Notes: generated from the letters alone by a model not told the origin. Positions 16,635 through 19,057 are shown, counted from the stretch's first letter. The stretch: 64,000 bases of DNA from an uncultured SAR86 cluster bacterium (GCA_902558395.1 CACEDS010000001.1:389152-453151); one strand, 5' to 3'. A program made the numbers and translations.

Positions 16635-17033
16635 CTATTTTCTCCAGCCGCCTCTATCAAAAATTCTTAAATAGGTTAGCTGATCATGTTCAGAAAGATT
16701 TATAACCTTACAGTAATCCCCAGATTGAACTAATACAACATCTCCTGCTGTCAAATCGTATGAATCTTTGTGCTCGACGCCATATGATGGATCAGATCCA
16801 TGGCCTTCATCAGAGTTCATATACTCAACAATTTCCATTGAGCCTCTACCATTAGTAATAACATAAACGACATCAGAATTAATTAATTTATGTCCTTGTG
16901 TGGACTTGCCAGGCTGTATAACAGTTTTGCTAGCTATAACTCTTTCGAGCAGATCATTTGTCCATACCGCATAGTCTTCATTAACGTTGTGTGGCGAACC
17001 ACCAACTCTAAAATTATTGTATTTTTTTGCCAT
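16635..17033 (-). CDS. Small cupin-fold protein, function unknown
   Basis: 132 aa with cupin-like strands (GHKLINSDVVYVITNGRG, AGDVVLVQSGDYCKVIN). The canonical His/Glu metal ligands are mostly substituted. Confidence 0.45.
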   Translation of the reverse strand: MAKKYNNFRVGGSPHNVNEDYAVWTNDLLERVIASKTVIQPGKSTQGHKLINSDVVYVITNGRGSMEIVEYMNSDEGHGSDPSYGVEHKDSYDLTAGDVVLVQSGDYCKVINLSEHDQLTYLRIFDRGGWRK

Positions 17034-17139
17034 AATATTTTATAAATCCTTTCAAATAATTATAGTTATTTTAATTAAACATGCCAGTAAATACTTCTTT
17101 AGCCTGTTGTTATTGTTCTATATAAAATATAATGCAATA

Positions 17140-17185
17140 GCGCCTATTTGATATCAGCTTGCCGGCGCAAAAAAATTGGCTAAAG
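17140..17185 (+). promoter_or_regulatory. Candidate SAM-II/SAM-V-class riboswitch aptamer in the metY leader
   Basis: GC-rich stem GCGCC (17140-17144) / GGCGC (17164-17168) in otherwise AT-rich DNA. The loop is U-rich and contains CAGCUUGCC. It is followed by an A7 tract and UUGGCUAAAG, which can pair back to the loop (H-type pseudoknot). It lies 60-105 nt upstream of metY, the classic gene context for these classes. Confidence 0.45.
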
Positions 17186-17244
17186 AGAACTTAGAACTAT
17201 CTTCTCTCAGTTGATGTTTTAATATTTTTACTAAAGGAAACATT

Positions 17245-18537
17245 ATGAGCAAAACATATACAAACCCAGAAACGATTGGACTTCATGCCGGATGGAGGAA
17301 GGACGATAATACTAACTCAGTTGCAGTACCAATTCATCAAACAACTAGTTATCAGTTTGATAATACTGACCATGCTGCAAATTTATTTGCCTTATCAGAG
17401 CTAGGTAATATTTATTCAAGAATCATGAATCCAACCTGCGCTGTTCTTGAAGATAGAATTGCTGCGCTAGAAGGCGGTGTTGGAGCATTAGCTGTAGCAT
17501 CAGGACAAGCTGCATCAGCATATGCAATCCAAAATATTGCAAAGAATGGAGATAATATTGTTGCTTCATCGCATTTATATGGAGGAACATATAACCAATT
17601 TAAAAATGTGTTCTCAGATATGGGTATTGAAGTTAGGTTTGTAGACCCAGCCGACCCACAAAACTTTGCTAATGCTACTGATGATAAGACTAGAGCCTAT
17701 TATGGTGAAGTTTTACCAAACCCAAGTTTTGAAGTATTTCCTATTTCTGAAGTGGCTGAAATTGGCAGACCTTTGGGAATACCATTAATTGTTGATAATA
17801 CAGCTGCACCTGTAATATGTAAGCCTTTTGATCACGGAGCTGCAGTAGTTATTCATTCTACAACTAAATTTATAGGCGGTCATGGAACTTCAATTGGTGG
17901 AATTATTGTTGATAGTGGTAATTTTGATTGGGAAGCTTTTCCTGAAAGACAGCCAGCTTTAAATAATCCAGACCCTTCATATGCCGGAGCTGTTTGGACT
18001 GAAGCTGTAAAACCACTAGGACCTATTGCTTATATATTAAAAGCTAGGACAACAATTCTAAGGGATATGGGCGCTGCTATGAGCCCATTTAATGCATTTA
18101 TGTTTATTCAAGGCTTAGAAACGCTTGCACTCAGAATGAGAGAGCATTCAAGTAATGCAGAAAAAGTTGCTGATTATCTATCAAACCATGAATCTGTTGA
18201 AAGAGTTGGTTATCCTTCAAAAATGGATGGTTACGCCAAAGAAAGAGCTGATAAGTACTTAACTAAAGGGAATGGTGCTCTAATGGGCTTTGAGATAAAA
18301 GGTGGTGTTGAGGCTGGTAAGAAATTTATTGACGCCTTAGAGATGGTCTATCACGTCGCCAATATTGGTGATTCAAGGAGTTTAGCTATTCATCCTGCAA
18401 GTACCACTCATAGCCAGTTAAACGAAGAAGAGCTTTTATCAGCTGGTGTCACGCCTGGGTATGTACGATTGTCAATTGGTCTTGAACACGTTGACGACAT
18501 TATTGCTGACCTTGAGCAAGCTTTAGCAAAGATATAA
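17245..18537 (+). CDS. metY: O-acetylhomoserine aminocarboxypropyltransferase/sulfhydrylase
   Basis: 430 aa, a PLP enzyme of the Cys/Met metabolism family: [33 protein letters not shown] (PLP lysine), [11 protein letters not shown]. Confidence 0.92.
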
Positions 18538-18544
18538 TTTAATC

Positions 18545-19057
18545 TTGAGCCAAGAATTAGTTACTTACATAGTTCTTGGCTCAAAATCTAGACTTCAAGG
18601 AATTAAGCTTCCTGCAAATAGCAAATTTGAAGAATATATATTCTTAAATTTTGATTCAAAACATAAGATTCTAGAAAATTTAGATCAACTTATTACTGAT
18701 TCCCAAGGTGAATTAATAGTTCTGTTGCCTCCCTCATCTTATCCAAATAGTCTAGCTAAAGAAGCTTTAAAGAAAATTGCTTTAATTGGTTTATCCTCAT
18801 GGGGGTGGTTTGAATATAATTCAAAAAGAAAAAACTTAGTTCAAAATATTAAAAAAGTTAATACTCTAATAAGAAGTATCCCAGATTTAGAACAAGGTAT
18901 TTATTTTACAAAAAGATTATATTTTTCTGTTGGTGGTTTTGGTTCTATAAAACCAAATGTTTTTTCAGAAATATCAAAAAGATTATATTCTAGAATAGAT
19001 CCACAAAAACCATTGCCAGCACTTATAATAAGAACAAAAAATCTTCAACTTGATTAG
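18545..19057 (+). CDS. Hypothetical protein (faint GT-A glycosyltransferase-like C-terminal similarity)
   Basis: 170 aa with a TTG start. Only EQGIYFTKRLYFSVGGFG...ISKRLY recalls small family-2 glycosyltransferases, and no DxD region is visible. Confidence 0.35.
   Translation: MSQELVTYIVLGSKSRLQGIKLPANSKFEEYIFLNFDSKHKILENLDQLITDSQGELIVLLPPSSYPNSLAKEALKKIALIGLSSWGWFEYNSKRKNLVQNIKKVNTLIRSIPDLEQGIYFTKRLYFSVGGFGSIKPNVFSEISKRLYSRIDPQKPLPALIIRTKNLQLD

What the first reader, a model, noticed from the sequence alone, without database searches (positions are those of the whole stretch)
17140..17207. Candidate SAM-II/SAM-V-type pseudoknot riboswitch in the metY leader
The 210-nt leader of metY contains the only GC-rich hairpin in an otherwise AT-rich spacer: GCGCC (17140-17144) paired with GGCGC (17164-17168). 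Its 19-nt loop is UAUUUGAUAUCAGCUUGCC. An A7 run and UUGGCUAAAG (17176-17185) follow. The 3' GGCU/GGC can pair with loop AGCU/GCC to give an H-type pseudoknot, with a U-rich loop strand and an A-rich linker. That is the architecture of the SAM-II (Rfam RF00521) and SAM-V (RF01826) classes, whose hallmark 3' element is ...AAA..GCUAAA. Both classes are classically found upstream of metX/metY/metA-type genes, and SAM-V was described from marine bacteria upstream of metY. A second hairpin, AGAGAA (17184-17189) / UUCUCU (17202-17207), overlaps the 3' tail and is followed by U-rich sequence, so it may be an expression platform. I am matching the consensus from memory, so this is a structured hypothesis and not a confirmed hit.
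Basis: partly seen in the sequence, partly recalled or inferred. Interest (0 to 1): 0.6.

Follow-up and report, generated by a model that had tools for sequence, protein, structure and literature searches.

The report
SAM-II riboswitch before SAR86 metY
The GC-rich hairpin before the methionine-synthesis gene metY is very probably a real S-adenosylmethionine-sensing RNA switch of the known SAM-II class, in the abundant marine bacterium SAR86; it is an ordinary new member that scores just under the standard database threshold.

Summary
[quoted passage not shown] Rfam RF00521 (SAM_alpha) scores 29.6 bits, under its gathering score of 36. It is still the best hit in the 1.29-Mb genome by 13 bits (E 4.9e-5). 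RF01826 (SAM-V) does not match.

The same element occurs in 103 of 151 genomes of the order, which is the SAR86 cluster of Gammaproteobacteria. There it precedes metY, homocysteine methyltransferases, a metX-like gene and other genes.

Across 70 distinct copies:
- All five P1 pairs show compensatory changes.
- The small P2a helix covaries (CG/UA/UG).
- The nucleotides equivalent to the SAM contacts of the solved structures never vary: the UUU triplex strand, UUGC, and GC-U-AAA with a bulged U.

No terminator follows. The likely mechanism is translational repression: SAM locks loop and tail, and frees 17206-17220 to pair over the Shine-Dalgarno/AUG region. This step is inferred, and fold predictions support it only in part.

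SAM-II-like hits are common in the class (41 of 150 other families sampled). Verdict: new member of a known kind, modest interest.

The parts
17128..17133 (+). Probable -10 box TATAAT of the metY promoter. The transcript would start at or just before P1.
   Evidence: An ATATAAT lies 6-8 nt before P1 in the orthologous leaders. The consensus scan did not call it, because it has no good -35. Inferred.
17130..17204 (+). Span of the Rfam RF00521 (SAM_alpha / SAM-II) match
   Evidence: 29.6 bits against a gathering score of 36. E 3.6e-5 and E 4.9e-5 genome-wide, where it is the top hit by 13 bits. The own model R1 gives 68.2 bits.
17140..17144 (+). P1, 5' strand GCGCC
   Evidence: Pairs with 17164-17168. 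All 5 pairs show changes on both sides in 70 distinct copies, and 99% of cells are paired. Orthologues show GCGCC/GGCGC, ACGCC/GGCGU, GCGUU/GGCGC and CACGCU/AGCGUG.
17145..17150 (+). L1, UAUUUG. U17147-17149 form the triplex strand and are equivalent to U10-U12 of SAM-II.
   Evidence: UUU is invariant in 47 of 47 sequences. The roles of U10-U12 are taken from PMC3303485.
17154..17155 (+). P2a, 5' strand (U17154, C17155)
   Evidence: Pairs with A17188 and G17187. Columns 20-21 with 57-58 of A2 give CG 35, UA 20, UG 13 for one pair and CG 64 for the other; 96% paired.
17159..17163 (+). P2b, 5' strand UUGCC. U17160 and G17161 are equivalent to U21 and G22, which flank the SAM adenine.
   Evidence: UUGC is invariant. 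The pairs are U59-A83, U60-A82, G61-C80, C62-G79 and C63-G78. The last pair covaries: GCC/GGC against GCU/AGC in L056.
17164..17168 (+). P1, 3' strand GGCGC
   Evidence: See the P1 5' strand.
17169..17177 (+). L3, A-rich linker AAAAAAAUU
   Evidence: A-rich in all copies, with length 8-13 nt.
17178..17184 (+). P2b, 3' strand GGC-U-AAA. U17181 is bulged and is equivalent to U44 (SAM-II) or U47 (SAM-V), which pairs with the SAM adenine. A17182-17184 are equivalent to A45-A47.
   Evidence: GCUAAA is invariant in 47 of 47 sequences. The roles come from PMC3303485 and PMC6061858.
17187..17188 (+). P2a, 3' strand (G17187, A17188)
   Evidence: helix 2.
17184..17207 (+). H2 hairpin, AGAGAA (17184-17189) with UUCUCU (17202-17207). 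It takes the aptamer tail when SAM is absent.
   Evidence: Predicted in the minimum-energy fold (-3.6 kcal/mol on its own). The same position holds AGAGA/UCUCU, GAGAA/UUCUC, AAAG.AGAG/CUUC.CUUU or UAAAAAG/CUUUUUUA in orthologues.
17209..17218 (+). Segment X, AGUUGAUGUU. It is complementary to the aptamer loop GAUAUCAGCU (17150-17159), and more weakly to the tail AUUGGCU (17175-17181). Proposed anti-sequestor.
   Evidence: A 10-bp run in own-type leaders and 5-6 bp in deeper orthologues, with A-U changed to U-A in L052. Type B paralogues have the loop GAUCCU and the segment AGGAUU at the same place. Mean longest run is 6.9 and 6.2, against 5.0-5.2 in shuffles and 4.6-4.9 when loops are swapped. 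The RNAduplex z-score is only -1.6. Inferred.
17212..17245 (+). H3 sequestor, UGAUGUUUU (17212-17220) with GAAACAUUA (17237-17245). CUCA 17206-17209 with UGAG 17246-17249 can extend it. It covers the 3' part of the Shine-Dalgarno sequence (AAGGA 17234-17238) and the A of the AUG.
   Evidence: Minimum-energy folds. L052 has a different sequence at the same place, AAUUAUU with AAUAAUU. Inferred.
17245..18537 (+). metY (O-acetylhomoserine sulfhydrylase), the regulated gene

Best explanation
Bases 17140-17188 fold into an H-type pseudoknot aptamer for S-adenosylmethionine of the SAM-II class, at the 5' end of the metY mRNA of a SAR86-cluster gammaproteobacterium.

The aptamer has these parts:
- P1: GCGCC with GGCGC.
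- L1: its UUU lies as a third strand in the groove of P2b.
- P2b: loop UUGCC with tail GGC-U-AA. The bulged U17181 would pair with the adenine of SAM, and the U:A.U triple would face the sulfonium.
- P2a: a 2-bp helix, UC with GA.

Proposed switch:
- Low SAM: the tail sits in hairpin H2 (17184-89 with 17202-07). Segment X (17209-18) pairs with the aptamer loop, so the ribosome-binding site is open and metY is translated.
- High SAM: loop and tail are locked in the pseudoknot. The stretch 17206-17220 is released and pairs over 17237-17249, which holds part of the Shine-Dalgarno sequence and the AUG. Translation is repressed.

Status of each step. The aptamer architecture and its conservation are shown here. 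SAM as the ligand follows from identity of the pocket nucleotides with the solved SAM-II and SAM-V structures. The expression-platform steps are inferred.
For: - Rfam: RF00521 scores 29.6 bits over its full length (E 3.6e-5) and is the top hit of the genome (E 4.9e-5; next hit 16.2 bits).
- Distribution with RF00521: homologous elements occur in 44 of 61 relatives, 6 of them over the gathering score, and in none of 14 control genomes.
- Distribution with the own model R1: 103 of 151 genomes of the order, with 1-5 copies each.
- Covariation: 95.7% of cells are paired, against 32-52% when partners are slid, and 0 of 500 shuffles reach this. All five P1 pairs have double changes. P2a gives CG 35, UA 20, UG 13.
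- Orthologous metY leaders show compensatory P1 changes and GCC/GGC against GCU/AGC in P2b.
- Invariant UUU, UUGC and GCUAAA correspond to U10-12, U21/G22 and U44-A47 of SAM-II (PMC3303485) and to the same pocket in SAM-V (PMC6061858).
- Gene context is methionine synthesis: metY, and in relatives homocysteine S-methyltransferases, a metX-like gene and a Cys/Met PLP enzyme.
- Platform: there is no terminator. Constrained folds switch the ribosome-binding site from open to paired in the own-type leaders. The loop-X complementarity recurs with a different sequence in type B paralogues and exceeds shuffled and swapped controls.
Against: - The RF00521 score is below Rfam's gathering score (29.6 against 36).
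- The loop-X duplex taken alone is not significant (z about -1.6 for own-type leaders; not significant in L045, L046, L048).
- The unconstrained minimum-energy fold already pairs the ribosome-binding site without SAM.
- In 4 of 10 orthologues the two constrained folds do not differ at the ribosome-binding site.
- All helices of the platform are weak and A/U-rich.
- The relatives are not independent samples.
Confidence: 0.82

Rival explanations
1. The aptamer is real, but it acts on transcription or mRNA stability (Rho-dependent termination or RNase access) and not by hiding the ribosome-binding site.
For: In families f2 and f3 of the same order, the metY aptamer is followed by a clear antiterminator/terminator: GCUAAAnAGG, CCUGUUUAGC and a stem followed by U9. 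The class therefore uses transcriptional control nearby. Fold predictions for the translational switch are mixed.
Against: No intrinsic terminator lies in 16950-17350. The only hairpin followed by a U-rich run (17175-17215) would form without SAM, which gives the wrong logic for a methionine-synthesis gene. A helix over the AUG is present at the same position with different sequences (own and L052).
Confidence: 0.2
2. It is a SAM-V riboswitch (RF01826), like the one at metY of 'Candidatus Pelagibacter ubique'.
For: It sits before the same gene in a marine organism. The pocket nucleotides are the same. The loop UUUGAU(A/U)UCAGCUUG resembles L1 of a SAM-V-like element in L066. The lower part of P2 has 3 bp, between the SAM-II count (2) and the SAM-V count (4).
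Against: RF01826 gives no hit on the leader at E up to 10, and its best hit in the genome is 14 bits at another place. The tail ends 56 nt before the AUG and carries no Shine-Dalgarno sequence, whereas SAM-V lies within about 10 nt of the start (PMC2704228). A P2a helix is present, and SAM-V was defined as lacking it (PMC2704228).
Confidence: 0.05
3. It is a conserved structured leader that senses nothing or senses another ligand: a protein-binding hairpin, or an SAH or other adenosyl-compound sensor.
For: No ligand was tested. The score is below the Rfam threshold. Some copies in relatives precede genes with no obvious link to methionine: OmpW, a fatty-acid-desaturase family gene and an ATP-grasp gene.
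Against: Every nucleotide that contacts SAM in the solved SAM-II and SAM-V structures is invariant here (PMC3303485, PMC6061858). This includes the U:A.U triple that reads the sulfonium charge. Most of the associated genes make methionine.
Confidence: 0.04

Closest known systems
SAM-II riboswitch (Rfam RF00521 SAM_alpha; metX aptamer structure PDB 2QWY)
   Same: It has the same H-type pseudoknot, with P1, a U-rich L1 triplex strand, P2b UUGC with GC-U-AAA and a bulged U, P2a, and an A-rich L3. It lies before metY, the core SAM_alpha target in alphaproteobacteria (PMC4239095). The full-length RF00521 alignment gives E 3.6e-5.
   Different: It scores 29.6 bits, under the gathering score of 36. 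P1 has 5 bp instead of 6. P2a has only 2 bp (UC/GA) against about 4 in the consensus. The lower part of P2b has 3 bp (GCC/GGC). The L1/loop middle (GAUAUCAG) is unlike the consensus. The host is a SAR86 gammaproteobacterium. The platform appears translational and uses a segment complementary to the loop.
SAM-V riboswitch (Rfam RF01826; metY aptamer of 'Ca. Pelagibacter ubique', PDB 6FZ0)
   Same: It has the same pocket nucleotides and pseudoknot topology, the same gene (metY), a marine streamlined host and probably translational repression (PMC6061858, PMC2704228).
   Different: RF01826 does not match. SAM-V carries the Shine-Dalgarno sequence in its own 3' tail within about 10 nt of the start. 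Here the tail is 56 nt upstream and a separate sequestor helix is needed. P1 is longer and the lower part of P2 is shorter than in SAM-V.
Terminator-type SAM-II riboswitches at metY of other SAR86 families (type C, found here)
   Same: The aptamer is homologous (same model R1, 55-70 bits) and the gene is the same.
   Different: Those carry an antiterminator CCUGUUUAGC and a stem followed by U9. The window's element has neither.

Membership tests
SAM-II (RF00521, SAM_alpha) | Covariance-model score at or above Rfam's gathering score (36 bits) | tested here: not met
   29.6 bits, with E 3.6e-5 locally and 4.9e-5 genome-wide. Homologues in the same order reach 36.3-40.8 bits. Model R1, built from those and from this element, links them at 47-70 bits. 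The threshold is a curation cut-off, not a structural feature.
SAM-II (RF00521, SAM_alpha) | P1 helix closing a loop, supported by covariation | tested here: met
   All 5 pairs have changes on both sides and 99.1% of cells are paired. Orthologue variants are listed.
SAM-II (RF00521, SAM_alpha) | Pseudoknot P2b between the 3' part of the loop (UUGC) and the 3' tail (GC-U-AAA), with a bulged U | tested here: met
   UU/AA and GC/GC are invariant and complementary in 70 distinct copies. The extra pair shows CG 15, UA 7 and GU 17, with 27 unpaired. Within metY orthologues it is GCC/GGC against GCU/AGC. Invariant pairs neither prove nor disprove pairing.
SAM-II (RF00521, SAM_alpha) | U-rich L1 strand (U10-U12) available for the major-groove triplex | tested here: met
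   UUU is invariant in 47 of 47 sequences, at 17147-17149. Triplex formation itself cannot be tested by sequence.
SAM-II (RF00521, SAM_alpha) | P2a, the final 3' pairing between the loop and the tail | tested here: met
   U17154-A17188 and C17155-G17187. The columns covary (CG 35, UA 20, UG 13) and 96.4% of cells are paired. Only 2 bp here.
SAM-II (RF00521, SAM_alpha) | Location in the 5' leader of methionine or SAM metabolism genes | tested here: met
   metY here. In relatives: metY, homocysteine S-methyltransferases, a metX-like gene and a Cys/Met PLP enzyme.
SAM-II (RF00521, SAM_alpha) | Selective binding of SAM over SAH | not testable with these tools
   Needs in-line probing or ITC.
SAM-V (RF01826) | Match to the SAM-V covariance model | tested here: not met
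   No hit at E up to 10 on 17030-17260. The genome's best hit is 14.2 bits at another place. As a positive control, the model finds a SAM-V-like element in L066 at 29.5 bits.
SAM-V (RF01826) | Aptamer within about 10 nt of the start codon, with the Shine-Dalgarno sequence in or next to the P2 3' strand (PMC2704228, PMC6061858) | tested here: not met
   The tail ends at 17188 and the AUG is at 17245. The Shine-Dalgarno sequence AAGGA lies at 17234-17238.
SAM-V (RF01826) | Lacks the final 3' pairing element (P2a) of SAM-II (PMC2704228) | tested here: not met
   A covarying P2a is present.

The most novel reading that the evidence does not exclude
The SAR86 metY element may represent a distinct sub-type between the SAM-II and SAM-V consensus. 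In this reading its expression platform works by strand invasion of both pseudoknot strands. One downstream segment (17202-17218) would pair with the aptamer tail (H2) and with the aptamer loop (X) when SAM is absent, and with the ribosome-binding site when SAM is bound. Paralogous type B copies share the layout. Most SAR86 copies fall under the Rfam threshold (only 7 of 70 hits reach the gathering score), so the SAM regulon of one of the ocean's most abundant bacteria would be largely unannotated.
Probability: 0.3. Interest if true: 0.35.

Novelty: new member of a known kind. Interest (0 to 1): 0.25.

Why it matters
SAR86 is among the most abundant bacterial groups of the surface ocean, is uncultivated, and has few regulators. 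The finding shows that its methionine synthesis gene metY is very probably under direct SAM control by an RNA switch. That gives a concrete handle on its sulfur and methyl metabolism. It also shows that the standard Rfam threshold misses most copies in this lineage.

For riboswitch biology it adds little. The aptamer class, its pocket and its gene association are all known, and SAM-II-like hits are common in the class: 41 of 150 other families sampled.

Tried and rejected
- Whole-window Rfam scan at gathering thresholds found nothing. The hit appears only with E-value thresholds.
- SAM-V (RF01826) was rejected: it has no hit on the leader.
- Other weak Rfam hits on the leader (RF01726 at 16.3 bits, a Burkholderia sRNA on the minus strand at 16 bits, miRNAs, a CRISPR repeat) are all far under their thresholds. 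I treated them as chance.
- Intrinsic terminator: none in 16950-17350. The same simple scan also misses the obvious interrupted-stem terminator of type C relatives. That terminator folds at -14.1 kcal/mol, so I also checked the negative result by eye.
- The plain fold of 17100-17250 is not more stable than shuffles (z -0.56). Energy alone does not single out the element.
- RNAduplex of the loop against the platform has z of only about -1.6. I therefore looked for independent support and found it in type B paralogues.
- A nested alternative has the tail AUUGGCU pairing with AGUUGAU (in the minimum-energy fold). It is possible in own-type leaders but fits L052 and L056 poorly. I kept it as a variant of the same model.
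- Poiata et al. 2009 (PMC2764483) is not held. The SAM-V features come from PMC2704228, PMC6061858 and the Rfam consensus shown.
- Earlier notes of this scan near the locus concern other genes and did not bear on it.

Full report
**Observation.**
- GCGCC 17140-17144 pairs with GGCGC 17164-17168 around the 19-nt loop UAUUUGAUAUCAGCUUGCC.
- A7 follows at 17169-17175, then UUGGCUAAAG at 17176-17185.
- AGAGAA 17184-17189 can pair with UUCUCU 17202-17207.
- The ORF at 17245-18537 is metY: Pfam Cys_Met_Meta_PP gives E 8e-120, and NCBIfam TIGR01326 gives 609 bits against a cut-off of 495.
- The aptamer region is 45% G+C. The rest of the 211-nt spacer is 21% G+C.
- The spacer is shared with a divergent gene at 16635-17033 on the minus strand.
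- A TATAAT at 17128-17133 keeps a constant 6-8 nt distance from the hairpin in orthologues. The real 5' UTR is therefore probably about 105 nt and begins at P1.

**Direct test with Rfam.**
- At gathering thresholds the window has no RNA family hit.
- With E-value thresholds, RF00521 (SAM_alpha, the SAM-II aptamer) aligns over its full length to 17130-17204 at 29.6 bits. Its gathering score is 36 and the E-value is 3.6e-5.
- The alignment matches the conserved AUUUGA, GCUUGC, AAA and GCUAAAGAG blocks.
- Over the whole 1.29-Mb genome this is the best RF00521 hit (E 4.9e-5). The next hit scores 16.2 bits.
- RF01826 (SAM-V) gives nothing on the leader. Its best hit in the genome is 14 bits at another place.
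- As a control, RF01826 does find a SAM-V-like element in an alphaproteobacterial locus (L066, 29.5 bits). That output also shows the SAM-V consensus.

**Organism.** MetY is 91-94% identical to that of the single-cell genomes 'Gamma proteobacterium SCGC AAA168-P09' and 'AAA076-P13' and of several marine gammaproteobacterial MAGs. AAA076-P13 is a genus of the SAR86 cluster (PMC9771814). The genome is small (1.29 Mb, 93% complete) and the window has 33% G+C.

**Relatives.**
- RF00521 finds elements at E up to 0.01 in 44 of 61 related genomes. Six genomes have a hit over the gathering score, up to 40.8 bits. None of 14 control genomes has a hit.
- I aligned 47 copies (A1) and built a model with P1 only (R1).
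- R1 finds the element in 103 of 151 genomes sampled from the order. By family the counts are f1 28/40, f2 39/40, f3 35/40 and f4 0/30. Genomes carry 1-5 copies.
- Three sub-types are visible.
  - Type A is the window's own. It sits at metY in its genus and neighbouring genera of f1.
  - Type B has the loop GAUCCUAUUGC and the tail GCUAAAACGG. It precedes two kinds of homocysteine S-methyltransferase and a fatty-acid-desaturase family gene.
  - Type C sits at metY in f2 and f3, and also before a metX-like gene, another Cys/Met PLP enzyme, an OmpW gene and an ATP-grasp gene.
- The predominance of methionine-synthesis genes fits a SAM sensor.

**Covariation.** I used the model-guided alignment of 77 copies, 70 of them distinct (A2). 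I counted a structure with P1 and a pseudoknot of P2a and P2b.
- 95.7% of cells form standard pairs, against 32-52% when the 3' partners are slid by 1-3 columns. None of 500 shuffles reaches this value.
- All five P1 pairs show changes on both sides. One pair, for example, gives GC 31, AU 27 and CG 12.
- P2a shows CG 35, UA 20 and UG 13 for one pair, and CG 64 for the other.
- The UU/AA and GC/GC pairs of P2b never vary. That is what one expects of the ligand pocket, but it cannot confirm pairing by itself.
- The additional P2b pair varies: CG 15, UA 7, GU 17 and 27 unpaired.
- Among orthologous metY leaders alone, P1 appears as GCGCC/GGCGC, GCGCU/GGCGC, GCGUU/GGCGC, ACGCC/GGCGU and CACGCU/AGCGUG. 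The third lower pair of P2b changes from GCC/GGC to GCU/AGC.
- The conserved pseudoknot register is loop UUGCC (17159-17163) with tail GGC-U-AA (17178-17183). The AGCU/GGCU option is not conserved.

**Correspondence with solved structures.**
- In SAM-II, the SAM adenine stacks between U21 and G22 and pairs with the unpaired U44.
- U10 contacts U44.
- The sulfonium faces the carbonyls of U11 and U21 in the triple U11-(U21-A45).
- U12 contacts A46 (PMC3303485).
- SAM-V has the same pocket: U47 is bulged, the triple is U20:A48.U9, and A50 contacts the amino-acid end (PMC6061858).
- Here the equivalents are U17147-17149 (L1), U17160 and G17161, the bulged U17181, and A17182-17184.
- All of these are invariant in the 47-sequence alignment.
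- This is the basis for naming SAM as the ligand. It is an inference from homology, not a measurement.

**SAM-II or SAM-V.** SAM-V was set apart from SAM-II by three things: it lacks the final 3' pairing element (P2a), its helices have other lengths, and it lies within about ten nucleotides of the start codon (PMC2704228).
- The window's element has a covarying P2a.
- Its tail ends 56 nt before the AUG and carries no Shine-Dalgarno sequence.
- It matches RF00521 and not RF01826.
- Its helix lengths are intermediate. P1 has 5 bp (SAM-II 6, SAM-V 3-4). The lower part of P2b has 3 bp (SAM-II 2, SAM-V 4; consensus lines).
- McCown et al. treat SAM-II and SAM-V as types of one general SAM-II class (PMC5473149).
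- I file it as a SAM-II-type member of that class.

**Expression platform.**
- There is no intrinsic terminator in 16950-17350.
- Type C relatives have an obvious antiterminator (CCUGUUUAGC, complementary to the aptamer tail) and a stem followed by U9.
- The window has three further elements.
  - H2 ties up the 3' tail, including A17184 and the P2a strand.
  - Segment X (AGUUGAUGUU, 17209-17218) is complementary to the aptamer loop GAUAUCAGCU (17150-17159), and more weakly to the tail AUUGGCU.
  - H3 pairs UGAUGUUUU (17212-17220) with GAAACAUUA (17237-17245). CUCA with UGAG can extend it. It covers the 3' part of the Shine-Dalgarno sequence and the start codon.
- X and H3 share 17212-17218, so they exclude each other.
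- I folded the leader under two constraints.
  - With the P1 strands blocked and everything else free, as a proxy for the SAM-free state that allows the loop to pair, the fold gives loop-X, H2 and an open ribosome-binding site.
  - With the whole aptamer blocked, as a proxy for the SAM-bound state, the fold gives H3 plus CUCA/UGAG.
- The order of transcription favours this model. The loop is available to X before the ribosome-binding site exists.

**How firm the platform model is.** Evidence against:
- The unconstrained fold pairs the ribosome-binding site even without SAM.
- The competing states differ by only a few kcal/mol.
- The loop-X duplex alone has z about -1.6.
- In four of ten orthologues the two constrained folds do not differ at the ribosome-binding site.

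Evidence for:
- The layout is conserved. H2-like pairing of the tail is always followed directly by a segment complementary to the loop.
- L052 has loop UUCAGC with GCUGAA where the window has AUCAGC with GUUGAU. That is an A-U to U-A exchange.
- H3 in L052 is AAUUAUU with AAUAAUU at the same position.
- Type B paralogues have a different loop (GAUCCU), and the segment after their GGAA/UUCC hairpin is AGGAUU.
- Mean longest complementary runs are 6.9 (type A) and 6.2 (type B). Shuffled platforms give 5.0-5.2 with a maximum of 6.0, and swapped loops give 4.6-4.9.
- These sequences are related, so the figures are indicative only.

I put about 0.55 on translational repression by this route, and about 0.82 on the element being a SAM-sensing SAM-II-class riboswitch that represses metY.

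**Novelty.**
- I found no paper that links SAR86 with SAM riboswitches.
- A survey of about 200 proteobacterial genomes found SAM_alpha only in Rhizobiales and Rhodobacterales (PMC4239095).
- Meyer et al. state that SAM-II is common in Alpha-, Beta- and Gammaproteobacteria (PMC2704228).
- My own sample agrees with Meyer et al.: 41 of 150 other families of the class have an RF00521 hit at E up to 1e-4, and 12 of them are over the gathering score.
- The element is therefore an ordinary new member of a known class in a lineage where it is under-annotated. In one search only 7 of the 70 listed hits reach the Rfam gathering score.
- This genome has no SAM-I/IV hit and only one R1 hit. The metY leader is thus the only SAM riboswitch detected in it, at 93% completeness.

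**Limits.**

Noticed in passing
L014 2315-2504 (-), L029 1372-1576 (-), L138 1383-1569 (-) (SAR86 family f2 relatives): Two different SAM riboswitch classes lie in tandem before an OmpW-family gene. A SAM-II-like aptamer (RF00521, 32-33 bits) is followed about 30-40 nt later by a SAM-I/IV aptamer (RF01725, 52-61 bits, over its gathering score of 41.1). The literature I read describes SAM-II/SAM-V tandems. I did not see a SAM-II plus SAM-I/IV tandem, nor an ompW association.
   Followed up: partly
L031 1507-1676 (-); also G034:C44:1339-1502, G080:C56:4536-4698, G088:C1:1093424-1093598: Two type B SAM-II-like aptamers lie about 100 nt apart before a fatty-acid-desaturase family membrane protein (Pfam FA_desaturase, E 1.9e-21). 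This recurs in one genus of the window's family.
   Followed up: partly
L066 1237-1485 (+) (GC-rich alphaproteobacterial MAG, JAYQTT010000013.1): A SAM-II-like aptamer (24 bits) and a SAM-V-like aptamer (29.5 bits, next to the start codon) lie in tandem before metY. Both are under their gathering scores. [quoted passage not shown] P. ubique' among sequenced organisms.
   Followed up: partly
L044, L047, L049, L050, L051, L053, L055 (about 125 nt before metY): These SAR86 relatives have MetY 90-94% identical to the window's but no aptamer before the gene. Several share another conserved leader with TTTACTATACTT and AGGGTGT(C/T)GT. Rfam finds nothing there. The riboswitch seems to have been lost or replaced among close relatives.
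   Followed up: partly
window 17245-18537; loci L059-L118: Outside SAR86, the best 80 matches to this MetY in the genome collection are, where the record names a class, alphaproteobacterial (SAR116, Rhodospirillales, Sphingomonadales, Rhizobiales; 67-74% identity), and no other named gammaproteobacterium appears. This hints at transfer of metY, perhaps together with its SAM-II leader. The scan uses patterns taken from the query, so it is biased, and I built no tree.
   Followed up: no
window 16635-17033 (-) and 18545-19057 (+): The divergent 132-aa ORF upstream of the riboswitch and the 170-aa ORF just after metY have no Pfam or NCBIfam match. A promoter-like site for the upstream ORF lies at 17087-17059 on the minus strand (10 of 12 matches).
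   Followed up: no
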